From Streptomyces virus Yaboi (lineage: Duplodnaviria > Heunggongvirae > Uroviricota > Caudoviricetes), in IMG/VR virus record IMGVR_UViG_2974625447_000001, positions 57,808 through 121,807 of that record: a stretch of DNA of 64,000 nt. One strand, written 5' to 3'. Position numbers and translations under genes: made by a program. The notes under the pieces were generated by a model, which had not been told where the DNA came from, did not search any database, and saw only the letters and a list, made by a program, of their open reading frames with translations. Of the stretch, positions 16,204 through 46,605 are shown piece by piece (within the stretch, counting starts at the first letter, position 1; each line of letters starts with the position of its first letter).

Positions 16204-16725
16204 ATGACGGTACTTCTGCGAACAATTCATGGAAGCCATCTGTATGGCCTCGCTCACGCAGACAGCGATAAGGATATCTACGAAGTAGTTACAACCACTC
16301 GCACTAAGCGTAAGCGAAACATTAAGCAGACCATTTCAAATGGTGTTGACAAGACGACGGTAGATATGTCAACATTTATGAGGATGGTTGATGATTGCGT
16401 ACCTCAAGCACTTGAAGCGCTATGGACGCCGGTAGCTGAGATCGATAAGATCCACGAATTCCGGACACAATATCGAGTGAATCGCGCCAAGATGAAGGAT
16501 GTGTACGTAAGAACTGCTCTGAATTTTGCCAAGAGTGACGGAATTAAGCAGAAGAAGCACGCAGTGCGGCTCTTGCTGAACCTTGGTCACACTTTGGAAT
16601 TTGGAAAGTTCAATCCTCGATTGGATGCAATGGATAAGATCATTATCAATGCATCTGTCGGAGATGCGGGAAAGTATGATGCTGTGTTCGACGCTCTTAT
16701 TGATGAGGTCGGCCGGTGGATATGA
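16204..16725 (+). CDS. Pol-beta-superfamily nucleotidyltransferase
   Basis: HGSHLYGLAHADSDKDIY = GS-x9-DxD NTase signature; 173 aa. Confidence 0.5.
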   Translation: MTVLLRTIHGSHLYGLAHADSDKDIYEVVTTTRTKRKRNIKQTISNGVDKTTVDMSTFMRMVDDCVPQALEALWTPVAEIDKIHEFRTQYRVNRAKMKDVYVRTALNFAKSDGIKQKKHAVRLLLNLGHTLEFGKFNPRLDAMDKIIINASVGDAGKYDAVFDALIDEVGRWI

Positions 16726-16734
16726 TCCCACCAT

Positions 16735-16811
16735 TGGGGCGTATACCCTCTGTCTGATAAACAGTTGAAAGGTTAAGTGGTCACATGTGGGTTCAACTCC
16801 CACCGTCCCAA
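16735..16811 (+). tRNA. non-canonical tRNA-like gene W1 (anticodon-like loop GAT, Ile)
   Basis: acceptor tggggcg/cgtccca (7 bp) and T-arm gtgggTTCAACTcccac are canonical. The only anticodon-like hairpin (tctgt-ctGATaa-acagt, U33/A37) sits at positions 15-31 directly after a 7-nt linker tataccc. A 21-nt region with a D-loop-like AAGTGG follows. Confidence 0.45.
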
Positions 16812-22232: not shown

Positions 22233-22713
22233 GGATGCTAGGTTTACGGTCGATGTCAACAACTTACCCATACAATTTTATATCGGGCCGAAGAGTATCG
22301 ATTATCTTACACTGCAAATGAAAGATCGATATTCACCAACTTGCCCGATCTTTTCATTTCTACGAAAGGATCAAAGGTTGGACACCGAAGCGCGCATCGC
22401 ACGTTTCAAGGAGCTTTGGCAATCAGGCGAAAGCTATTGGGCAGAAGACATTGTTGATGAAATCAATGGTGAGCTGTCAGACGATGAGTTCAAGCTGAGG
22501 CATGTAGATCAAATCGAAGAGGACACCTCTCGATGGATGGATCACATGTTGGATATCGTTGAAATTAACGAAGGTGTCTTCGTTGGAGTACGCTGGGAAA
22601 GCGGCAAGACGGAGATGCAAGAGAATATGTATGAAGACGATTCCGTCTATCTGCTTGAGCGAGTAGAGAAGGTCATCACTACTGTTGAGTGGAATGATCT
22701 AAAGACTCTCTAA
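22231..22713 (+). CDS. hypothetical acidic protein upstream of Ro60
   Basis: 160-aa ORF. Confidence 0.4.
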   Translation: MDARFTVDVNNLPIQFYIGPKSIDYLTLQMKDRYSPTCPIFSFLRKDQRLDTEARIARFKELWQSGESYWAEDIVDEINGELSDDEFKLRHVDQIEEDTSRWMDHMLDIVEINEGVFVGVRWESGKTEMQENMYEDDSVYLLERVEKVITTVEWNDLKTL

Positions 22714-22748: not shown

Positions 22749-24374
22749 ATGTCCAACGCACTAACTAACGCCGCAAAGGCAGCAAACAAGACTTCTCAGT
22801 CAATGAAGGCTAAGGCTGGACAGGTTAAGAACAACGCTGGTGGATTCGTCTTCCAGGTTTCTGACCAGGCCCGCCTTGAGCGTTTCCTTATTCTGGGAAC
22901 TGACGGAGGAACGTACTACGTCAATGAGGTTAACCACACTCAGAAGAACGTAGATTTCCTTAACGAGTTTATTGCTCGTGACGAAGCTGCTGTCCTGAAC
23001 ACGATTGTTGATGTCTCTGTCAATGGCCGTGCATACAAGCAGTCTCCAGCCCTTTTCGCCCTTGCTTCTGTTATTGTCAATGGCAAGGACAAGCAGGCGG
23101 TAAAGGCTGTATTCAACAAGGTCGTAAGGACTGCTACTCATCTCTACGAGGTGGTTAACTACCTTAACGAGCTTGGTGGATGGGGTCGCGCAAAGCGCGA
23201 GATCGTGGCTGGCTGGTTCGATAGGGACGCTGATAAGCTTGCTTATCAGGCAGTCAAGTATCGTTCCCGTAAGTTCGGTGGCAACACCTGGACGCTACGA
23301 GACGTGATGCGAAAGGCTCATCCACAGAACGTTGATGCGAATGTAGCTGCCTTTATCACAAAGGGGGATGTTGTAACAGACTCTCCAGTTGCGATTAAGG
23401 GTTTCGCCCGAATGCAGAAGGCAACTTCTGTTGAGGAAGTCCACAGCGTTCTTCGTGAATACGAGATGCTTTCATGGGAGACAATTCCAACACAGTTCCT
23501 CACGGATGCCAGTGTTTGGAAGCGACTCTTTGCTAATGGTCAGCTTCGCGGCCAGGCTGCTGTTCGAAACATCACTCGCCTTGCGCGTATTGGTGCCTTC
23601 AAGGATATGCGTTTCGCTGCGAACTTTGCTAGCCAGCTAACGAATGAGGAAATGATTCGTCAGTCTCGACTGCACCCAATCAACTTCCTTAACGCTGCCG
23701 TTGTTTATGCGGAAGGCCAGGTGGATCGAAAGACCTACTATGGTGGTCGTGTGAAGAACTGGGAGACTGAGGGCGTTATTGTCGATGCTATCGATGAGGC
23801 GTTTCACAAGTCATTCAAGACCATTGAGCCAGCGGGAAAGAGGACGATGCTCGCCATCGACTGTTCCGGTTCAATGAGTGCACTTGCGTCAGGTCTCGAT
23901 CTAACTTGTGCACAGGTCGCTGCTGCAATGGCAATGACTGTTGCACGTACTGAGCCAGCTCACATTATTCGTGGCTTCTCCAGCGCGGGTTACAACTGGC
24001 GTGACAGTGGTCTAGCTGAGCTAAAGATTACCGGCCGTTCCTCTCTTGCCCAGGCAATGAGTGAGATGCGAAAGGTGAACTGGGGCGGAACTGACTGCTC
24101 ACTGCCAATGACGTGGGCTCTTGAGAACAGGGTTGAAGTTGACACCTTTGTTGTTATCACTGATAACGAGACATGGGCTGGAAAGATTCACCCATTCCAG
24201 GCTCTCAAGCAGTATCGCAAGAGCATGGGAATCGATGCGAAGCTTGCTGTTCTAGGAGTTTCTGCAACTGATTTCTCTATCGCTGATCCAAGTGATCGCG
24301 GCATGATGGATTTCGTTGGCTTTGATAGCAACGCTCCACGTGTTCTGGCTGACTTCTCTGCGGGTCGTCTCTGA
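22749..24374 (+). CDS. rsr: Ro60/TROVE-domain RNA-binding protein (Rsr homologue) with C-terminal vWA
   Basis: 541 aa; N-terminal RLERFLILGTDGGTYYV matches Ro60 RLHRFLCFGSEGGTYYI; PALFALASV matches Ro60 PMLFALAIC; C-terminal vWA MIDAS LAIDCSGSMS; RBS ggaaaggaaag; terminator 24376-24405. Confidence 0.85.
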   Translation: MSNALTNAAKAANKTSQSMKAKAGQVKNNAGGFVFQVSDQARLERFLILGTDGGTYYVNEVNHTQKNVDFLNEFIARDEAAVLNTIVDVSVNGRAYKQSPALFALASVIVNGKDKQAVKAVFNKVVRTATHLYEVVNYLNELGGWGRAKREIVAGWFDRDADKLAYQAVKYRSRKFGGNTWTLRDVMRKAHPQNVDANVAAFITKGDVVTDSPVAIKGFARMQKATSVEEVHSVLREYEMLSWETIPTQFLTDASVWKRLFANGQLRGQAAVRNITRLARIGAFKDMRFAANFASQLTNEEMIRQSRLHPINFLNAAVVYAEGQVDRKTYYGGRVKNWETEGVIVDAIDEAFHKSFKTIEPAGKRTMLAIDCSGSMSALASGLDLTCAQVAAAMAMTVARTEPAHIIRGFSSAGYNWRDSGLAELKITGRSSLAQAMSEMRKVNWGGTDCSLPMTWALENRVEVDTFVVITDNETWAGKIHPFQALKQYRKSMGIDAKLAVLGVSATDFSIADPSDRGMMDFVGFDSNAPRVLADFSAGRL

Positions 24375-27971: not shown

Positions 27972-28013
27972 CTGCGCCAGGGTCGGTTTAACTGCCGGTT
28001 CTGTACGCGCATT

Positions 28014-28091
28014 GGGTCTGACAGGTGTGACGTTACTGAAAGCCGACAATGGACCGGTAACGGATAGTGGGTTCGACTCCCACCAGATCCA
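28014..28091 (+). tRNA. tRNA-like gene, anticodon undetermined (atypical middle region)
   Basis: acceptor gggtctg/cagatcc and T-arm gtgggTTCGACTcccac are canonical. The interior has a 6-bp stem cgttac/gtaacg around a 20-nt loop that contains AATGG, with no 5-7-5 anticodon arm. Confidence 0.35.
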
Positions 28092-28334: not shown

Positions 28335-28448
28335 AGGAGTGTAGTTTAATTGGCAAAACCGCGAAATGCACTGCCGAAAGTGATGTGGCGTAGCCCGCAG
28401 TGAGTAGGTAACAGAGTAGCAGTTGCGGGTTCGAGTCCCGTCGCTCCG
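28335..28448 (+). ncRNA. tRNA-like RNA with about 40-nt internal insertion (pseudo-tRNA or insertion-containing tRNA)
   Basis: 5' acceptor-like aggagtg plus canonical D-arm gtttAATTGGCAaaac; 3' T-arm gcgggTTCGAGTcccgt plus cgctccg; 64 nt between them with no anticodon arm. Confidence 0.3.
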
Positions 28449-28585
28449 CTAGCCTGAGACGACGATCCGATGTAGGTCCCCTAGGGCTTGCGCAGGCCCG
28501 AAGGGCATTCGGGAAAGGTTCCTAGCTAGGTCCGTCTATCAATAGGGTGAGAGTTTTGACAGTTTCCTCATAATAAACTGTCCCC

Positions 28586-28878: not shown

Positions 28879-28956
28879 GCCCTAGTATCGCCACTGGCTT
28901 CTAACCAGTCGTTAACAGCGTAATGGAGTATGCAGGTTCGAGTCCTGTCTAGGGTA
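28879..28956 (+). tRNA. non-canonical tRNA-like gene W2 (anticodon-like loop TCT, Arg)
   Basis: acceptor gccctag/ctagggt; 7-nt linker tatcgcc; hairpin actgg-ctTCTaa-ccagt at positions 15-31; 22-nt region with AATGG; T-arm gcaggTTCGAGTcctgt; same layout as W1 and W3. Confidence 0.45.
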
Positions 28957-33196: not shown

Positions 33197-33273
33197 GTCT
33201 CCATATCTCCTCTGCCTCCTAAGCAGTTGAAAGAGTAACCGGATACATGTGGGTTCGACTCCCACTGGGGACA
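33197..33273 (+). tRNA. non-canonical tRNA-like gene W3 (anticodon-like loop CCT, Arg)
   Basis: acceptor gtctcca/tggggac; linker tatctcc; hairpin tctgc-ctCCTaa-gcagt at 15-31; 21-nt region tgaaagagtaaccggatacat (near-identical to W1); T-arm gtgggTTCGACTcccac. Confidence 0.45.
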
Positions 33274-35044: not shown

Positions 35045-35836
35045 ATGGGATTTCTTTCCCGCAAGATGAAGTCTTTCGTTCCGGCTCAGAACCTTTCAGC
35101 CAAGAAGACTGTTACGCTTACTCCTATTCAGGCCGGTAAGCCTGCGGCAAACGTAAGTCTGATTAAGCAGAACGGCGTAAGCTTCGAAAAGAAGGTTGAT
35201 AGCGCTGTTAAGCTACAGAAGGATCTGGGTGTAGCCAATCGATTTGACGTCATTGCTCTGATCGATGAGTCATACTCTATGGATACGCTATTCGCAAACG
35301 GCACTGTTCAGGCTATTACTGAGCGAGCGCTAGCCTGGACTGCTGGCGTTGATGCTGACGGAATGGCCCCGGTGGGAGGATTTGCCAATGGCTTCCAGTG
35401 GCACGGTGAAATTGATCTGCGTAACGTTATGGGATGCGCTTCTAGCTGGCGTCCTTGGGGTGGTACGGATCTAGCGGCTGGTCTTCGAGAAGCTTTCGAG
35501 GTTGCTAAGGCTGCTGACAATCCTGTGTACCTGTTCGTAGTTACTGATGGATCTCCTAACGACCGTAATGCGGTTGTTCGTCTGGTGAAGCAGATGTCAG
35601 AGTATCCCATCTTCATCAAGTTCCTGCTCGTTGGCAACGACCAAAGAGGCAAGCAGTTCCTTGAGTACCTTGACGATCTAGAGCAGCACGAGGGTCCGTC
35701 TCGTCTCTTTGACAACGTAGACACTCAGCACATCAAGGACGTGTCTCGTGTGAGCGATGACGAATTCAACAAGGCAATGACTGAGGAAGTCCCATCAGCC
35801 ATTGATGCAATGCGTCAGGTTGGCCTAGTTCGCTGA
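35045..35836 (+). CDS. vWA domain protein (TerY-like)
   Basis: MIDAS ALIDESYSMD; ...FVVTDGSPND. Confidence 0.6.
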   Translation: MGFLSRKMKSFVPAQNLSAKKTVTLTPIQAGKPAANVSLIKQNGVSFEKKVDSAVKLQKDLGVANRFDVIALIDESYSMDTLFANGTVQAITERALAWTAGVDADGMAPVGGFANGFQWHGEIDLRNVMGCASSWRPWGGTDLAAGLREAFEVAKAADNPVYLFVVTDGSPNDRNAVVRLVKQMSEYPIFIKFLLVGNDQRGKQFLEYLDDLEQHEGPSRLFDNVDTQHIKDVSRVSDDEFNKAMTEEVPSAIDAMRQVGLVR

Positions 35837-38265: not shown

Positions 38266-38820
38266 TTGAAGATCTTCTATGATACCGAATTTTATGAAAC
38301 TGGCCCAGAGGAGCCTATTAGGTTCATTAGTCTAGGCGCGGTGCGTGAGGATGGCGAGAAGCTGTACTTAATCACCAACAATCTGTATGCGCTCAACAGA
38401 GCAAATGAGAATCCGTGGCTGGCAGAGAACGTCATCAGCCATTTGCCAGTAAAGCAGAACGGCGATGGAAGCCTCTCCTGGGACACTCAGCACCCTGACT
38501 ATGCAAGGGTGTTGCCCAACGAAGCAATTGCTGGTCTGTGGAGAGATTTCGTTCTGGACTACGATGAACGTGACTACCTTGACAAGCCTGAGCTGTGGGC
38601 ATACTATGGTGCTTATGACCACGTGGTTGTCAGCCAGCTCTTTGGCCGTATGATCGACTTGCCAGATGACATGCCGATGTATACGATGGATCTAAAGCAG
38701 CGCTGGCACACAGAAGGTATGCCTGCCCTTCCTCCGCTGGAAGGATCAGAGCACAACGCCCTTGACGATGCCATGTGGAACAAGGTAGTATCAGAGTATC
38801 TGGACTCCCTTAAGGGATAA
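38266..38820 (+). CDS. DEDD-family 3'-5' exonuclease (DnaQ/RNase T-like)
   Basis: Exo I FYDTEFYE; Exo III HNALDDA; TTG start. Confidence 0.7.
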   Translation: MKIFYDTEFYETGPEEPIRFISLGAVREDGEKLYLITNNLYALNRANENPWLAENVISHLPVKQNGDGSLSWDTQHPDYARVLPNEAIAGLWRDFVLDYDERDYLDKPELWAYYGAYDHVVVSQLFGRMIDLPDDMPMYTMDLKQRWHTEGMPALPPLEGSEHNALDDAMWNKVVSEYLDSLKG

Positions 38821-39259: not shown

Positions 39260-39537
39260 GGGGATGCCTTGGTTTCGACTGGCGCGGATAACCTTAGTTT
39301 GCAGCCTGACATTGAGGAGATGTCATTAAAAAGCCTCAAACCTATAAATGCCAACTCTAACGTTGCATCTGCCTACGCCCTAGCGGCGTGATGGCCGGGC
39401 GGCAACTGCCTAGGAACAGAAAGTTGCGAATGTTTGGCCCGGTGGGGATAAACACATGCAGTACCTGCTTGACACATGGCTGTGTATAGACTACTGTTAG
39501 ATTCGTCAGGACGCGGGTTCGACTCCCGCCATCTCCA
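39260..39537 (+). ncRNA. ssrA: tmRNA (ssrA), tag reading frame ANSNVASAYALAA
   Basis: 5' GGGGATGCCTTGGTTTCGACTGG resembles E. coli tmRNA 5' end; 3' GGACGCGGGTTCGACTCCCGCCATCTCCA nearly identical to E. coli tmRNA T-arm/acceptor; acceptor ggggatg/catctcc with G3-U70; internal frame 39350-39391 GCC AAC ... TAC GCC CTA GCG GCG TGA. Confidence 0.8.
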
Positions 39538-40150
39538 CTTAAGGATCATCATGCAGATGACTGCAAGGTCTACTATGATAGACTTTGATCTCACCGAGCG
39601 CGATGCTCGAACAATTCAGAAAAGCATGAAGACTGGACCAGTCACTCTCAAGGTTACTAGGGTTCAGATCAGCTACACATATGGTGCCGTTCTTGTTGGC
39701 ACTGAGCGTAATCCTGGTCCTCACTACAAGGTGAGGGTGTCAGGATATCGAATGAAGGCTGGCATGAAGCAACGGGATACTGTTGTCCAGCACAGCTATC
39801 TCAACCCTAATCTGCCGGATTGGCTGGAGCAGATGGTTGTTGACAACGCCCCAAACTGGTACTAGGATGTAGACATGCCGAACTGGATGCGACTACCTAA
39901 CACACGCAAGGATGTCTCACTCGGATACCGAATGGGATCTGCGTTCGAAAATGGCTATGGCGATGAGGGACCTCTCGCCAGGGGCCTTGTTGTTGGAGGA
40001 TGTGTTTTCCTCCCCCTTCTAATTGTCATCGCTCTCTTTGGCGGTGCAGCCTACGGACTCTGGGAGCTTGCCACATGGCTCTGGACTATGATAGCCTGAT
40101 GAAGAAGTGGATGGACACCATCCGCAAGATCGAGCAGCGTAAGGACTGAA

Positions 40151-41046: not shown

Positions 41047-41116
41047 TGCTACGTAGCTTAATATGGCAAAGCAACTCTTGGCCAGGGTGTCACGTGGTTC
41101 GAACCCCGTCGTAGCA
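41047..41116 (+). tRNA. degenerate tRNA-like (pseudo-tRNA?)
   Basis: perfect acceptor tgctacg/cgtagca and D-arm gcttAATATGGCAaagc, but T-arm (cgtggTTCGAAcccc) and anticodon arm (loop ttGGCca) are imperfect. Confidence 0.3.
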
Positions 41117-41667
41117 GCAATATCAATTAGACTTCATAATCACCTTCCTGTTATACTAATGGTGCCCTAATCCATCAGAGGCAGGAGGATTGAATATGGA
41201 CTTTGTGGAACACCTAGGTTACCAGTACCTCTCTGATCTTCTGACGGAAATCCGACAGGGCCAGCAGAGATTGGAGGATAGAATGGCAGACCTAACAACT
41301 GAGGTTGCAAACCTCCGCGAAGCGGTATCTGGCGTAAGTTCAAGAGTTGATGCCCTTGTTGGCCCTCTTGCGGACGCCGTTAGAGAGGCACAGGAAGCTC
41401 TACAGGCAGAGCGTGACGCCGCTGAGGCATTGCGTGTATCTGAGGACGCCGAAGATGTTGAGCAGAATGCTGCATTGCAGGACGCTCAGGATCGTCTTGA
41501 TGCTGCACTAGCTCAGGCTTCCGATGCAGCCGATCAGATCAGTGTTGAGACAGCTCGTCTAAATGAGGTCGCAAAGCCAGCAGAGGAGCCTACTCCGGAG
41601 CAGCCAAGCGAGCCAACACCTGATGAGCCATCCGGCCCTGGTACCGAGCTTTGATAGAAAAATAGTT

Positions 41668-41763: not shown

Positions 41764-43424
41764 GTGTTTTGACGCCTTCTAGTAGCGCTGCTAGAATGAC
41801 AGAGATGGAAGGTTGCGGGTTCGATTCCCGCCCCCGGATTTTAAGGAGTATCATGAAAGATGATCTGATTGAGATCTCAGATGAAGAGTTTCGAGCGGCG
41901 TACCAAAGAAGGTTGAAGGCTCTAGGAATTACTGAGCAAGATCTTCTACGTCAAGCTGCGGCAGGAAACTTTGACACACATCAAATTAGAATGCTATGGT
42001 TTACAGTAGGCGGCTGGAAGAACGGCAAGCCTGTAGTCATGGCGTGAGGAGTGAAATGAACTACAACCCTGGTTAAGTAGCTTGACAAAGCTACACAACA
42101 ACAACTAGGATGTGATGTATGGCTACTGGCAAGGAGCGAGGCTTCAAGGACTGGAAGGGCTCCAAGGAGTTCCGCCGAAGCGCTCGTAATTACACTGAGT
42201 CCGAGACCGTTGGTAAGGGCAAGAAGAAGAACACTCGCAAGTGGTGCAAGGGAAAGGTCGGACGTAAGCACGTCCTTGGGCTTTTCAACAAGTACACCTG
42301 GCGACACGGGTACAAGTGCATCAATTGTGGGCGCGAGTTTCTTTGGCATTTTAGCGACCCGAACCGTGACAAGTTCGACTATGTTCCCGTAAGCTGGGAT
42401 GACCCTAGGGCGAACTGATGCAACTTAAGATGTACGCAATTGCCTGTGACCAAGCAGAAGCTATAAAGAACTGTTACACAGGCAAATATACAAACCAACC
42501 ATTCTGGCCTGATCATAAAACTCTGCTCCCATATCTGGAGCGAGCTAAGGCCGACAATCCTGATCTCCCATTGAAGATCTTTGTCATTAAGGTGAGTGGA
42601 TAAAATTGGCCGGTAACAAGAACAGCCGTAAGAAGTGGCTTTGCCTTGATTGTGGTGTAGACACTGGCAGGGTTGGCGAACACTTCTTTCTGATCAACGA
42701 GGTCTGGTCCTTGACAGGACTTGGGCACAAGGGTATGCTCTGTATTGAGCACGTTGAGAAGCGCATCGGTAGGCGTCTTGTTCCGGCCGATTTTGCTTCT
42801 GTGTGGATCAATGGACCGCGCGGCGGAATGAAGAGTCAGCGCCTTGCCAATCGATTGGGATACAAATGAATTGGAATTGGGTAGACGCGGCTCCAGAGGC
42901 CGTAGCTTATTACAAAAAGAAGAAGGCTGTCAAAGTCAACACAGTTGGCGACATAGAGGTCTGGCGAGATGTTTACGGCTATTCACGATTGATTCGTGAA
43001 AAGGACGGTAAGATTCAGGTCAGCGGTCGAGACTTCTTCACGATCAAGGACGCCACCGATGCAGCCTCTGCGTGTTAAGGTTGGCGATACTGTCTGTGAT
43101 TGCAGATACCTCCACCAAAAGGTGTTGAAGATCTGGCCAGACGGTGATACAGTAACTCTAGAAGATGGGGCAAGCTGCTCCATACGGCACTGCCTTGATG
43201 AAGCAAATCACGAATGGCAGCACCCAGAAGAAAACTAATCAGGAGGCCCGATGAGCTGGTTCAAATCAAAGAAGGGAAAGACTCAGCAAATCACTGAGCC
43301 TTCAAGACTGAGCCTAGATATTCTGGACATTCCAGGAATCGATGATGAAATCGACCAATGTGTTTGTGCGGAAGATTTTCTTGATCTCCTCGAAAAGTAT
43401 CGGAAAAATTAACCAGGAGGACCG

Positions 43425-44501
43425 ATGAAGTTCACCAAGATTTTCTCTCAGGAGCTTCTTGACGAGATGATCGCTGAGGGCTACGTCCGGGTGCAAACTC
43501 ATCCGGTCCTGCCTCTCAAGATTCTTAACTACTCTGAGAAGACTCAGTTCGCCGGAAAGTGGAACGAGTGCACGCTTAACTGCCGAGGCACAATTGTTGA
43601 CTTTGACGGCAACCTGATCGCTCGTCCTTTCATGAAGTTCTTTAACCTGGGTGACTCTCAGTCTGCACAGCTTGACTGGGATGCTCCGGTTGAGGTTACC
43701 GACAAGAAGGACGGGTCTATGGGAGTCTTGTACTCCTATAATGGAGAGCTGGCAATTGCAACTCGCGGCTCATTCATGTCAGATCAGGCAATTCACGCGA
43801 CTCGCGTTCTGAACGAGCGATACAGCCACATTCAGTTCGTCTCAGACTACACATTCATCTTCGAGATCGTTTACCCTGAGAACAGGATCGTTCTGGACTA
43901 CGGTTCACTTGACGACCTGATTCTGTTGGGTGCGGTTCACAAGGAGCATGGGTACGTCTGTGGCCCTCTGGAGGCTCAGGCAATTGTAAATTGGGACGGG
44001 CCGGTGACGGAGGTCTTCAATTACTCATCATTGCGTGAGGCGGCAGGGGCGCAGTACAGGAAGAACGCAGAGGGTTTCGTCGTCCGATCAGGCTCTAAGA
44101 TGGTCAAGATCAAGCAGGCAGATTACGTTGAGCTGCACCGCATGATCTCCATGCTTTCAGAGCGCTCTGTATGGAGTCAGCTCACCGAGGGAAAGACAAT
44201 TCTTGAGATTTGTGAGGCACTGCCTGACGAGTTTCACGGATTCGTCAAGGATGTCGGTGGCAAGCTGCTGGAGGAGTACAAGCGCATTGAGGTTGAGGTT
44301 TACGGTATCTACCAGAACCTTCTGACTTCTTTGGGCGAGGGCTTCTCACGCCGAGACTTCGCTATGGCTGCAAACCGAATTGATCTGTACCGATCTCACA
44401 TGTTCAACCTGCTTGACGGGAAGAGCATCGATGAGCTAATCTGGAAGCAGATCAAGCCGGAGGCCAAGCGAGAGGACGTACACCCTACTAATGCAGGCTA
44501 A
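43425..44501 (+). CDS. ATP-dependent RNA ligase (covalent nucleotidyltransferase, KxDG motif)
   Basis: motif I VTDKKDGSMGVLY (KxDG lysine nucleotidylation site); 358 aa; adjacent to polynucleotide kinase-phosphatase. Confidence 0.7.
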   Translation: MKFTKIFSQELLDEMIAEGYVRVQTHPVLPLKILNYSEKTQFAGKWNECTLNCRGTIVDFDGNLIARPFMKFFNLGDSQSAQLDWDAPVEVTDKKDGSMGVLYSYNGELAIATRGSFMSDQAIHATRVLNERYSHIQFVSDYTFIFEIVYPENRIVLDYGSLDDLILLGAVHKEHGYVCGPLEAQAIVNWDGPVTEVFNYSSLREAAGAQYRKNAEGFVVRSGSKMVKIKQADYVELHRMISMLSERSVWSQLTEGKTILEICEALPDEFHGFVKDVGGKLLEEYKRIEVEVYGIYQNLLTSLGEGFSRRDFAMAANRIDLYRSHMFNLLDGKSIDELIWKQIKPEAKREDVHPTNAG

Positions 44502-45230
44502 TGAAGAGTGGCGCAACGATCCTCGACGTAGGTATTTGGCCGAGCACCTTTGTAAGAAGCGTGCTCGGCTGTACCGTATGATGATTGAGGATCTTGAGAA
44601 AGCAGACCGTTGTCTCCAGATGATTCAGGAGACAGGTGAAGAAGTGCCGAATGCATTTAATGGATACCGAACAATGAGTTTTGCGAGGGATCTAGAAACT
44701 GCCCGGCGGAAATACAAGCATTATAACAATCCAACTAGTGTCCTCATCGGCAACATGGCTGCCTTTGGGGAAGGGGCATAATGAACGAGTTTATTGCTAA
44801 GCATCCTGTGGCTTTCGCCATCACATTCTTTGTGATTGGATGGGTTATCGGATGAACGGGGCTCGCAGGAAGGCGCAAAGCGCCATTTCAAAGGGCAAGT
44901 GTGTAAGTCTTGCCGGTCTTCCAATTGGTTGTGGAAAGACAGTTGATCCCAACAAGGAGTTCAAGAATGAGCTGTCTCGTAGAGAGTACGGAATCTCAGG
45001 TCTCTGTCAGTCTTGTCAAGACAAGTTTGACGACATGTTCTCCGACTAACGGATTCAAGTGTACTGAGTGTGGGTACGAATTCCCATATCATGCTGACAG
45101 TTGTCCTTACCACCCGGACAATCTGTGATGATTGCAGCATTGATCGCAGGCTCCAACGGAGCCTGCGTCTTTGTTTTCGGACTCATAGATGGGTTGACAG
45201 GATCAGCATGGTTCGATAGTCTTAAGACAG

Positions 45231-46139
45231 ATGAACGAAGGAGGCAGCGTGCAGCTTCTAATTCTCCGGGGCGTTCCCGGTTGTGGTAAGAGCACCTGGG
45301 CACACGATGTGTGGCTCAAGGGAAACCCGAATGGTGTTCGTGTAAACCGTGACGACATTCGTATGCAGCTCTTTGGCCGGGAGACCGGAGTAGATGAGGA
45401 GCTTGTAACTCGAATTGAGCACGGAATGGTGGAAGGCGCTCTGTCAAAGGGCTACTCTGTCATTGTCGATGACACCAACATTCGACACAAGTACATCAAG
45501 GAATTTGTCAAGATTGGTCAGCGTCATGGCGCTAGCGTTGCTGTAAAGCAATTCGATGTCTCTCTTGAGACGGCAATTGCTCGAAACAAGGCGCGTGCTG
45601 AGGCCGGTGGCCGAGACGTTCCTGAGTCCGTTATCCGTAGAATGCATCAGTCTCTCAAGTCTAGTGGAATTTTCACTGACTTCCACACTGATGTTACGGC
45701 CGTTCGTCCTTATGAGCGTCCCGAAGGTGCAGAGAAGGTCTACCTCTTTGACATTGACGGCACGCTTGCTGAGATGAATGATCGTGATCCCTTCAATTGG
45801 AGGGAAGTTGGAACGGATGATCCGCGACGACAGGTGATCCTTACTGCTCAGGCTCACGCCAAGGCAGGATACAAGATCATCGTCATGAGTGGACGAGATG
45901 GCTCATGTCGCAATGAAACAATCGCTTGGCTGAACCTGTACGACATTCCTTTCTCAGAATTGCACATGCGTGCTGAGGGGGATATGCGCAAGGACTCCAT
46001 CGTCAAGCAAGAGCTGTTCGATGAGCACATTCGGGACATCTATGATGTTGTGGCTGTGTACGATGATCGTCAGCAGGTTGTTGACATGTGGCGTGCGATG
46101 GGCATAGACTGTTTCCAGGTAGCACCCGGAAACTTCTGA
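45231..46139 (+). CDS. polynucleotide 5'-kinase/3'-phosphatase (Pnkp, T4 PseT-like)
   Basis: N-terminal P-loop LRGVPGCGKSTWA kinase; C-terminal HAD phosphatase LFDIDGTLAEM; terminator 46141-46170. Confidence 0.85.
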   Translation: MNEGGSVQLLILRGVPGCGKSTWAHDVWLKGNPNGVRVNRDDIRMQLFGRETGVDEELVTRIEHGMVEGALSKGYSVIVDDTNIRHKYIKEFVKIGQRHGASVAVKQFDVSLETAIARNKARAEAGGRDVPESVIRRMHQSLKSSGIFTDFHTDVTAVRPYERPEGAEKVYLFDIDGTLAEMNDRDPFNWREVGTDDPRRQVILTAQAHAKAGYKIIVMSGRDGSCRNETIAWLNLYDIPFSELHMRAEGDMRKDSIVKQELFDEHIRDIYDVVAVYDDRQQVVDMWRAMGIDCFQVAPGNF

Positions 46140-46140
46140 C

Positions 46141-46172
46141 AAAAGGGAGCTTCGGCTCCCTTTTGTTGTTTG
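46141..46172 (+). terminator. rho-independent terminator after pnkp
   Basis: aaaagggagcttcggctcccttttgttgtttgg. Confidence 0.7.
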
Positions 46173-46576
46173 GAGATATATGGAAATCATAGGAATGATT
46201 GCAGTCACGCTGCTCTTTGGCTGGCTAGCACTCATGGGAATTGCAATTAATATGATTCCGGCAGAGATGACCCCGGTGCAAAGAATTCTTGTATTGGCAT
46301 GGTCTGTAGGATGGATCTGGCTCTGGTGGATCGTAGTAGGATCTGATATTCAAGTGACGGTGAAGTGATGTTGCCAAACCCTGAGAAGTACGTTAGCATC
46401 TATCCTTACGAGGTTAGTCACGGATCTTGGTCTGTGCTTGGCACTGATGGATATCGATCCCAGACTATTCAGTCTGGCTTCAAAAGCAAAGACCTTGCGC
46501 AAGCATGGATCAGGGTGTATCTTGAGAACTACGTCAAGCAAAGCATGCTTCGAGGTGACGAAGAGTACGAGCTTCC

Positions 46577-46605
46577 TTGACATGCAGTGCCTAGCACGAT
46601 AGAGT
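46577..46605 (+). promoter_or_regulatory. sigma-70-like promoter TTGACA-N17-TAGAGT
   Basis: ccTTGACAtgcagtgcctagcacgaTAGAGTagtacc upstream of lipoprotein gene. Confidence 0.5.

What the first reader, a model, noticed from the sequence alone, without database searches (positions are those of the whole stretch)
43425..46172. tRNA repair (healing and sealing) module: RNA ligase plus polynucleotide kinase-phosphatase next to a full tRNA complement
An ATP-dependent RNA ligase (KxDG motif KKDGS) lies a few small genes upstream of a bifunctional P-loop kinase/HAD phosphatase (Pnkp). Together they form the T4 Rnl1/PseT-type pathway that reseals tRNAs cleaved by host anticodon nucleases (PrrC/RloC-type) or toxins. 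Combined with about 48 tRNA genes, a tmRNA and Ro60, this phage seems to invest heavily in maintaining the translation apparatus, which implies hosts armed with tRNA-targeting defences.
Basis: partly seen in the sequence, partly recalled or inferred. Interest (0 to 1): 0.6.

Follow-up and report, generated by a model that had tools for sequence, protein, structure and literature searches.

The report
Phage RNA ligase plus kinase-phosphatase repair genes
Streptomyces phage Yaboi carries a T4-type RNA ligase and a polynucleotide kinase-phosphatase that most likely re-join broken RNA such as cut tRNAs; both genes are real and intact but are already named in the public record, so the finding is ordinary.

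Summary

Ligase, a few small genes, then kinase is an order conserved in BE1 phages and in Francob-type phages. In an uncultivated relative the two genes flank an RlaP nucleotidyltransferase.

GenBank already names both genes, and the pathway is textbook. Substrate (tRNA) and trigger (host anticodon nuclease) remain untested. The low-GC codon usage of the phage (AGA+AGG = 31% of Arg codons) explains the tRNA set at least as well as defence does.

The most interesting things lie outside the finding:
- a widespread, unannotated family of rearranged tRNA-like genes (three copies here, at least 119 viral contigs);
- a Y-RNA-like element upstream of the Ro gene.

The parts
43425..44501 (+). Rnl1-family ATP-dependent RNA ligase (Yaboi gp206, 358 aa). 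Nucleotidyltransferase domain about residues 1-245; all-helical C-terminal domain about 246-342.
44491..44781 (+). gp207, 96-aa ORF of unknown function; its start overlaps the ligase stop codon (possible translational coupling).
   Evidence: ORF list and sequence. No Pfam, PHROG or NCBIfam hit. Not conserved in Paradiddles or Francob at this position.
44852..45049 (+). gp208, 65-aa Cys-rich small protein (…GLCQSCQD…).
   Evidence: phrog_19722 E 7e-14. A homologous ORF is present but unannotated in BE1 phage Paradiddles.
44967..45128 (+). Small conserved ORF with a zinc-ribbon-like C-terminus (…FKCTECGYEFPYHADSCPYHPDNL). Not annotated in Yaboi, where the record instead has gp209 on the minus strand (window 45055-45186).
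   Evidence: Homologue of annotated Paradiddles gp189 (…FRCSECQYQFPYHADNCSYNMNNK), in the same +1 frame relative to the gp208 homologue.
45145..45177 (+). Terminator-like hairpin (10 bp, 8 G-C) followed by TCTTTGTTTT, between the small ORFs and Pnkp.
   Evidence: Consensus scan and sequence. Function not shown.
45249..46139 (+). Bifunctional polynucleotide 5'-kinase / 3'-phosphatase, T4 PseT type (Yaboi gp210, 296 aa from GTG 45249). N-terminal P-loop kinase, C-terminal HAD phosphatase.
   Evidence: Pfam AAA_33 plus HAD_PNKP; phrog_505 E 1e-103. PDB: Pnkp1 4xrp E 1e-45 and T4 Pnkp 1ltq E 1e-42, both end to end. Counterparts of T4 K15, S16, D35, R38, R126, D165, D167, R176, R213, D254 and D278 are all kept. 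RBS AAGGAGG before GTG 45249.
16204..16725 (+). RlaP-like (RNA-ligase-associated Pol-beta) nucleotidyltransferase, Yaboi gp110. Probable third member of the repair set, 27 kb upstream of the ligase.
   Evidence: Pfam PF10127 RlaP, 26.6 bits against a cut-off of 23. 44% identical (E 6e-52, full length) to the RlaP gene that sits between the Rnl1-like ligase and Pnkp on contig ERZ25039498:contig_123952. RlaP adds 1-2 nt to damaged RNA 3' ends (PMC12776372).

Best explanation
gp206 and gp210 form a T4-type RNA 'healing and sealing' pair. [quoted passage not shown] The RlaP-like gp110 probably restores a nucleotide lost from the 3' end before sealing. The most likely substrates are tRNAs, host or phage-encoded, cut in the anticodon loop by host nucleases or toxins during infection of Streptomyces. 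Shown here: family membership, intact active sites and conserved gene linkage. Inferred: the enzymatic steps (from T4 Pnkp and Rnl1 biochemistry), the tRNA substrate, and the existence of a host nuclease.
Against: There is no biochemical or genetic data for any BE-phage protein. No host anticodon nuclease was sought or found. The ligase scores far below the NCBIfam T4 RnlA equivalog cut-off (77.9 against 242). A profile alignment to a T4-like Rnl1 stops at residue 258, so the C-domain that gives T4 Rnl1 its tRNA specificity is at best remotely related. A terminator-like hairpin separates the two genes, so they may not be co-transcribed. RlaP is 27 kb away in Yaboi. Some relatives carry only the kinase half of Pnkp, so full end-healing is not universal in this lineage.
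Confidence: 0.7

Rival explanations
1. The pair performs general RNA maintenance rather than countering a dedicated anticodon nuclease. It would repair any phage or host RNA (the ~47 phage tRNA-like RNAs, tmRNA, rRNA, mRNA) damaged by toxin-antitoxin RNases, secreted ribotoxins or stress, possibly alongside Ro/Y-RNA quality control.
For: The window also encodes Ro60 with a Y-RNA-like element upstream, an Rv2179c-like 3'-5' exoribonuclease next to the tmRNA gene, and RlaP. The ligase C-domain is only remotely like the tRNA-specificity domain of T4 Rnl1.
Against: These genes are scattered over 30 kb with no operon link. All characterised phage Rnl1/Pnkp biology concerns tRNA anticodon-loop breaks (my knowledge of the T4/PrrC literature). 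This rival differs from the main explanation only in substrate range.
Confidence: 0.2
2. The enzymes act on DNA. Pnkp would clean 3'-phosphate/5'-OH DNA ends, and gp206 would serve as the phage's DNA-sealing enzyme, because no DNA ligase is annotated in the genome.
For: No DNA ligase is annotated in the parts of the Yaboi record that were read. T4 Pnkp also acts on DNA ends in vitro (my knowledge). 324 Mycobacterium phage records have a Pnkp hit, while Mycobacterium is not among the ten commonest genera for the ligase hit, which suggests Pnkp without an Rnl1-like ligase.
Confidence: 0.05
3. gp206 is kept for the second, non-enzymatic activity of T4 gp63, which promotes tail-fibre attachment. 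This is what the RefSeq product name ('RNA ligase and tail fiber protein attachment catalyst') suggests.
For: The PHROG and RefSeq names carry this label.
Against: The label is inherited from T4. BE phages are siphoviruses (PMC5764925). All ligase catalytic residues are invariant across 61 diverse homologues, which indicates selection on catalysis. The gene sits among tRNAs and next to Pnkp, far from the tail genes at record positions 33-51 kb.
Confidence: 0.03

Closest known systems
Bacteriophage T4 RNA ligase 1 (gp63/RnlA) with T4 polynucleotide kinase-phosphatase (PseT), the tRNA restriction-repair pathway that counters PrrC
   Same: Same two enzyme families, the same domain order in Pnkp, and the same catalytic residues. 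The same fold for the ligase, including an all-helical C-domain. Found in a lytic phage that also carries tRNA genes.
   Different: Only 25% (ligase) and about 33% (Pnkp) identity to the T4-type proteins. Lys119 of T4 is an invariant Arg in this clade. Below the NCBIfam RnlA equivalog cut-off. The C-domain is not alignable by sequence to T4. The two genes are near neighbours here. The host is a Gram-positive actinomycete with no known PrrC-type partner. The phage is a siphovirus, so the tail-fibre role of gp63 is unlikely.
Phage and bacterial RNA-repair gene sets that include RlaP (Burroughs and Aravind's RNA-repair systems; jumbo-phage survey PMC7824862; RlaP biochemistry PMC12776372)
   Same: ATP-dependent RNA ligase, kinase-HAD Pnkp, RlaP nucleotidyltransferase, a Ro/TROVE protein and many tRNAs in one large phage genome. 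A relative has ligase, RlaP and Pnkp as one gene block.
   Different: In Yaboi RlaP is 27 kb from the ligase. The genome is 131 kb, so this is not a jumbo phage. No RtcB, 2H phosphoesterase or Hen1 was seen in the window.
Bacterial Pnkp1-Rnl-Hen1 repair complex (Capnocytophaga gingivalis, PDB 4xrp; PMC4411300)
   Same: Pnkp1 is the best PDB sequence match to gp210 (E 1e-45, full length).
Fungal/plant tRNA ligase Trl1 (Rnl1-type ligase plus kinase plus CPDase; tRNA splicing)
   Different: Trl1 is one polypeptide with a GTP-dependent kinase and a 2H cyclic phosphodiesterase, and it leaves a 2'-phosphate. The phage uses a HAD phosphatase on a separate protein. I found no intron-containing tRNA that would need splicing.

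Membership tests
Rnl1 (T4 RnlA) family of ATP-dependent RNA ligases | Match to the family profile (Pfam PF09511) above the curated threshold | tested here: met
   58.5 bits against a cut-off of 28.3, residues 52-233; phrog_562 E 9e-83 over residues 3-350.
Rnl1 (T4 RnlA) family of ATP-dependent RNA ligases | Covalent nucleotidyltransferase motifs with the Rnl1-specific essential residues (T4 R54, K75, F77, K99, D101, G102, K119, E159, E227, G228, K240, K242) | tested here: met
   All are conserved at aligned positions except K119->R114, which is a conservative change and an invariant Arg in 61 homologues. The residue list comes from my knowledge of published T4 mutagenesis.
Rnl1 (T4 RnlA) family of ATP-dependent RNA ligases | Rnl1 fold of the adenylyltransferase domain, closer to Rnl1/Trl1 than to Rnl2 or DNA ligases | tested here: met
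Rnl1 (T4 RnlA) family of ATP-dependent RNA ligases | All-helical C-terminal domain that confers tRNA specificity in T4 Rnl1 | tested here: inconclusive
Rnl1 (T4 RnlA) family of ATP-dependent RNA ligases | Equivalog-level similarity to T4 RnlA (NCBIfam TIGR02308 cut-off) | tested here: not met
   77.9 bits against a cut-off of 242.25. It is a divergent member of the superfamily, not a T4 RnlA equivalog.
Rnl1 (T4 RnlA) family of ATP-dependent RNA ligases | ATP-dependent sealing of 3'-OH/5'-PO4 RNA ends, preferentially in a tRNA anticodon loop | not testable with these tools
   This needs a purified-protein assay.
T4-type polynucleotide kinase-phosphatase (PseT/Pnkp) | N-terminal P-loop kinase with GxxxxGKS and the catalytic Asp/Arg residues (T4 K15, S16, D35, R38, R126) | tested here: met
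   GVPGCGKS; K20, S21, D41, R44 and R122 in numbering of the 302-aa ORF; AAA_33 E 5e-27.
T4-type polynucleotide kinase-phosphatase (PseT/Pnkp) | C-terminal HAD/DxDxT phosphatase with T4 D165, D167, R176, R213, D254 and D278 | tested here: met
   DIDGT; D174, D176, R185, R222, D255 and D279; HAD_PNKP E 2e-52.
T4-type polynucleotide kinase-phosphatase (PseT/Pnkp) | End-to-end collinearity with T4 Pnkp (both domains in one roughly 300-aa chain) | tested here: met
   Residues 9-302 align to 4-301 of 1ltq, E 1e-42; residues 8-302 align to 12-312 of 4xrp, E 1e-45.
T4-type polynucleotide kinase-phosphatase (PseT/Pnkp) | 5'-kinase and 2',3'-cyclic/3'-phosphatase activity on RNA ends | not testable with these tools
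   This needs an enzyme assay.
tRNA restriction-repair conflict (host anticodon nuclease against phage Pnkp and Rnl1) | Host encodes an anticodon nuclease (PrrC, RloC or another) that is activated by the phage | not tested
   No host genome was examined. A literature search for Streptomyces anticodon nucleases gave only general reviews.
tRNA restriction-repair conflict (host anticodon nuclease against phage Pnkp and Rnl1) | Genetic linkage of the healing and sealing genes across related phages | tested here: met
   Conserved neighbourhood in BE2, BE1, Francob and two uncultivated contigs.
RlaP (PF10127) RNA-ligase-associated nucleotidyltransferase (for gp110) | Profile match above threshold and genomic association with an RNA ligase | tested here: met
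   26.6 bits against a cut-off of 23, covering only the N-terminal 97 residues. The association is not seen in Yaboi itself. A 44%-identical orthologue lies between the ligase and Pnkp on contig L144.

The most novel reading that the evidence does not exclude
The ligase, Pnkp and RlaP would be the enzymatic core of a phage-borne RNA-maintenance system dedicated to the phage's own translation set. That set comprises about 47 tRNA-like RNAs, including rearranged-core tRNA-like genes that supply AGA/AGG decoding, a tmRNA, and a Ro/Y-RNA particle. The system would keep this parallel tRNA pool functional against still-unknown tRNA-cleaving defences of Streptomyces. On this reading, a divergent Rnl1 clade with its own C-domain has evolved specificity for phage-type rather than host tRNAs.
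Probability: 0.15. Interest if true: 0.6.

Novelty: new member of a known kind. Interest (0 to 1): 0.25.

Why it matters
The finding itself matters little. It is one more instance of the T4 heal-and-seal toolkit, and both genes are already named in GenBank. It has two uses. First, it marks cluster BE Streptomyces phages as a tractable actinobacterial system for asking whether tRNA-cleaving defences exist in Streptomyces: knock out genes 206, 210 and 110 and screen hosts. Second, it defines a divergent Rnl1 clade (invariant Arg in place of T4 Lys119, distinct C-domain) linked to RlaP. That clade could be used to test how RlaP, Pnkp and Rnl1 cooperate. The by-products, a widespread unannotated family of rearranged tRNA-like genes and a minimal Y-RNA-like element, are probably of more interest than the finding.

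Tried and rejected
1. Intron-containing phage tRNA needing protein-mediated splicing. An alignment of seven BE phages instead shows a conserved irregular central arm with a variable-length terminal hairpin and no anticodon arm. Rejected as an intron.

2. A canonical YrlA Y RNA next to Ro in Yaboi. There is no RF02553 hit. Only a short stem element matches a nematode stem-bulge RNA model. YrlA-type partial hits do occur in Ava3 and Francob.

3. Sequence-level homology of the ligase C-domain to T4. hhalign stops at residue 258.

4. Conservation of the small genes between ligase and Pnkp. gp207 is not conserved across subclusters. Only gp208 and the small zinc-ribbon-like ORF are.

5. An Rnl2-like second ligase in Yaboi, as found on contig L144. 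tblastn found none in the parts of the genome that I held.

6. A DNA ligase elsewhere in the genome. None is annotated in the regions read.

7. Literature on the rearranged tRNA-like family. Four full-text searches found nothing. This is not proof of novelty.
Full report
IDENTITY OF THE WINDOW. Megablast of 43000-46600 gives a 100% match over the full length to Streptomyces phage Yaboi (MH727564.1 / NC_048730.1; 131,250 bp; genus Karimacvirus; isolated on S. lividans). Five near-identical phages follow, then about 80 further Streptomyces phages at 60-90% identity. Window position equals record position minus 57,807. The record already annotates gene 206 as 'RNA ligase', gene 210 as 'polynucleotide kinase' and gene 130 as 'Ro-like RNA binding protein'. 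It also annotates one tmRNA, 44 tRNAs inside the window and one more outside it. The window has about 49% G+C. The paper describing the sister subcluster BE1 reports 50% G+C, about 20 points below the hosts, and 43-48 tRNAs. It proposes that the tRNAs either counter tRNA-degrading defences or compensate for codon usage (PMC5764925).

THE OBSERVATION. The ORF at 43425-44501 (358 aa; AGGAGG 5 nt before the ATG) matches Pfam RNA_lig_T4_1 at 58.5 bits (cut-off 28.3) and phrog_562 at E 9e-83 over residues 3-350. The ORF at 45231-46139 matches AAA_33 (E 5e-27) and HAD_PNKP (E 2e-52), and phrog_505 at E 1e-103. Its likely start is GTG 45249, which has AAGGAGG 5 nt upstream, as in the record. ARAGORN finds 41 tRNAs and a tmRNA. 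With the extra annotated and non-canonical elements described below, the total is about 47. Ro60 is confirmed by TROVE plus vWA_Ro60 and by NCBIfam Rsr at E 2e-138.

THE KINASE-PHOSPHATASE. gp210 aligns end to end with Capnocytophaga Pnkp1 (4xrp, E 1e-45) and with T4 Pnkp (1ltq, E 1e-42). All residues that I know to be essential in T4 Pnkp are conserved: kinase K15, S16, D35, R38 and R126; phosphatase D165, D167, R176, R213, D254 and D278. This is an intact bifunctional T4-type Pnkp.

LINKAGE. Between the two genes lie gp207, gp208, a small unannotated zinc-ribbon-like ORF and a terminator-like hairpin.
- gp207 (96 aa) has no homologues detected, and its start overlaps the ligase stop codon.
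- gp208 (65 aa) is Cys-rich and matches phrog_19722.
- The small ORF at 44967-45128 has a zinc-ribbon-like end. It is annotated in Paradiddles but not in Yaboi, whose record instead has a doubtful minus-strand gp209.
- The hairpin at 45145-45167 is followed by a T-run.

The order ligase, 2-3 small genes, Pnkp recurs in BE1 phage Paradiddles (ligase 73% identical) and in Francob (48% identical). In Francob the 'Pnkp' is a 141-aa kinase-only protein. By tblastn the ligase occurs in 133 and the Pnkp in 140 Streptomyces phage records.

Two uncultivated contigs were informative. On a 262-kb contig the ligase is followed by an 82-aa gene and a kinase-only gene. On a 137-kb contig four contiguous genes encode an Rnl2-like ligase, the Rnl1-like ligase (48% identical to gp206), an RlaP nucleotidyltransferase and a full Pnkp (51% identical to gp210). 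Yaboi gp110 (window 16204-16725, annotated 'nucleotidyltransferase') matches Pfam RlaP above threshold. It is 44% identical over its full length (E 6e-52) to that RlaP. RlaP enzymes add one or two nucleotides to damaged RNA 3' ends and restore aminoacylation of over-trimmed tRNA (PMC12776372). The repair set in Yaboi therefore most likely has three members, with the third dispersed 27 kb upstream.

MECHANISM AND ITS LIMITS. By homology to T4 the mechanism would run as follows. The HAD domain removes the 2',3'-cyclic or 3'-phosphate. The P-loop domain phosphorylates the 5'-OH. RlaP may refill a lost nucleotide. The ligase seals the break via Lys94-AMP. Family membership, intact active sites and linkage are shown. 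The chemistry is inferred from the characterised homologues. The substrate and the biological trigger are inferred only. No host nuclease was examined.

The argument that the large tRNA set implies tRNA-targeting defences is weak. In 63 plus-strand ORFs of the window, AGA and AGG together make up 31% of Arg codons. From my own knowledge, these codons are rare in high-G+C Streptomyces. Codon supply therefore explains the tRNA set at least as well. The comparative-genomics literature already describes this exact toolkit in large phages and interprets it as counter-defence: tRNAs, ATP-dependent RNA ligase, kinase-HAD phosphatase, RlaP and a TROVE protein with a tRNA-like partner (PMC7824862).

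RIVALS. I consider three rivals.
- General RNA maintenance rather than a specific anti-nuclease role is not excluded. It differs from the main explanation only in substrate range.
- A DNA-end role is unlikely given the fold ranking and the absence of an OB domain. However, no DNA ligase is annotated in the parts of the genome I read.
- The 'tail fiber attachment' label in RefSeq is inherited from T4 gp63. It is implausible for a siphovirus whose ligase active site is under strict conservation.

NOVELTY. Both genes are already named in the public record, and the pathway is textbook. What is new is modest: a divergent Rnl1 clade (invariant Arg for T4 Lys119, own C-domain), its link to RlaP, and kinase-only variants in relatives. 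I rate it a new member of a known kind, with low interest.

SEEN IN PASSING: REARRANGED tRNA-LIKE GENES. Three 77-78-nt elements (16735-16811, 33197-33273, 28879-28956) reach only 30-33 bits on the Rfam tRNA model, and ARAGORN misses them. They share one architecture:
- a 7-bp acceptor stem, then UAU;
- a 3-bp helix that encloses a 4-bp hairpin with a perfect anticodon-type loop (CU-NNN-AA, where NNN is GAU, CCU or UCU);
- a D-loop-like AAYUGGUYA segment placed after that helix;
- a canonical T arm and a discriminator A.

Blastn finds the same core at 79-86% identity inside tRNA arrays of a crAss-like Bacteroides phage, a faecal virus and a Microbacterium phage. It is unannotated in all of them. 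The anticodon-like triplet is UAU in 84 of these, GAU in 25, and ACG, UCU or CCU in one each.

On 36 distinct sequences the proposed structure pairs 96.8% of cells, against 71% in shuffles. It has 184 double-change cells against 55, and 0 of 500 shuffles reach the observed score. Slid controls give 40-48%. A covariance model finds exactly the three copies in the window, at 96, 87 and 48 bits, while normal tRNAs score 23 bits or less.

The only UCU and CCU anticodon-like loops I found in this genome are in these elements, while AGA/AGG are common codons. They may therefore be working tRNAs with a permuted D-arm topology. Four literature searches found no description.

SEEN IN PASSING: OTHER RNA ELEMENTS. 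A 73-nt Y-RNA-like element (22279-22351) lies 400 nt upstream of Ro and carries the GNCGAAG Ro-binding motif. It matches Rfam RF01656 at its gathering score. BE1 and Coruscantvirus phages have a longer version with a tRNA-like T arm at the same place, with compensatory stem changes. Phage Y RNAs as such are known (PMC4201824). Finally, a 115-nt tRNA-like RNA (28335-28449) is conserved in 77 BE phages. It has covarying acceptor and T arms, a conserved (invariant) D arm and a long irregular central arm. Its function is unknown.

Noticed in passing
window 16735-16811, 33197-33273, 28879-28956 (+); also L012 2488-2577, L013, L014, and IMG/VR loci from L015 on: A family of 77-nt rearranged tRNA-like genes. 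Layout: acceptor stem, a 3-bp helix enclosing an anticodon-type hairpin (GAU, CCU and UCU here; mostly UAU/GAU elsewhere), then a D-loop-like AAYUGGUYA segment, then the T arm. Strong covariation (96.8% paired; 0 of 500 shuffles reach it). At least 119 viral contigs, including crAss-like and Microbacterium phages. Unannotated or mis-called: 28879 is annotated tRNA-Val(aac). They carry the only UCU/CCU anticodon-like loops I found in this genome, while AGA+AGG are 31% of Arg codons. Not found in four literature searches.
   Followed up: yes
window 22279-22351 (+), between tRNA-Asp and gp129, upstream of Ro (22749-24374): An unannotated 73-nt Y-RNA-like stem-loop with the GNCGAAG motif and a 3' U-tract. 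Rfam RF01656 scores 38.2 bits against a gathering score of 38; folding z-score -3.2. BE1 NootNoot and Mandalore have a longer version with a tRNA-like T arm at the same site, with compensatory stem changes. YrlA partial hits lie upstream of Ro in Mycobacterium phage Ava3 and in Francob. Phage Y RNAs are known in principle (PMC4201824).
   Followed up: partly
window 28335-28449 (+): A 115-nt tRNA-like RNA conserved in 77 BE phages (72-100% identity, 108-143 nt). Acceptor (6 bp) and T arms covary and the D arm is conserved (invariant). The anticodon arm is replaced by a long irregular helix capped by a variable-length hairpin. Unannotated except as 'tRNA-Tyr' in Mildred21. Function unknown.
   Followed up: partly
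window 44967-45128 (+) against annotated gp209 at 45055-45186 (-): Probable mis-annotation. A small plus-strand ORF with a zinc-ribbon-like end (…FKCTECGYEFPYHADSCPYHPDNL) is conserved with Paradiddles gp189, while Yaboi annotates a 43-aa minus-strand gene over it. Conversely, the gp208 homologue is unannotated in Paradiddles. The two ORFs overlap in the same +1 relation in both phages.
   Followed up: partly
window 38266-38820 (+), gp189, just upstream of gp190 and the tmRNA gene (39260-39538): Annotated 'DnaQ-like DNA polymerase III subunit', but its best Pfam match is the Rv2179c-like 3'-5' exoribonuclease domain (E 1e-8). It may be an RNA-processing enzyme rather than a replication enzyme.
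   Followed up: no
L003 6477-6902 (Francob gp152); Comrade gp146 (hit H91); L142 5341-5784: In Francob/Comrade-type Streptomyces phages and on a 262-kb uncultivated contig, the gene after the Rnl1-like ligase encodes only the kinase half of Pnkp (141-147 aa). No HAD phosphatase is nearby.
   Followed up: partly
window 41047-41118 (+): The record annotates tRNA-Pro(tgg). ARAGORN at a relaxed threshold calls tRNA-Ala(ggc), and a tRNA between the tmRNA and the ligase in Paradiddles, possibly its counterpart, is annotated tRNA-Ala(ggc). The anticodon assignment in Yaboi may be wrong.
   Followed up: no
window 27997-28091 (+): A weak hit (21.8 bits) of the rearranged-tRNA covariance model, in an unannotated 140-nt gap between tRNA-Val(tac) and tRNA-Leu(tag). 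Possibly another degenerate tRNA-like element.
   Followed up: no
window 35045-35836 (+), gp173: This 'hypothetical protein' inside the tRNA array has a vWA-TerF-like domain (E 2e-26). It is the second vWA-containing protein in the region besides Ro.
   Followed up: no
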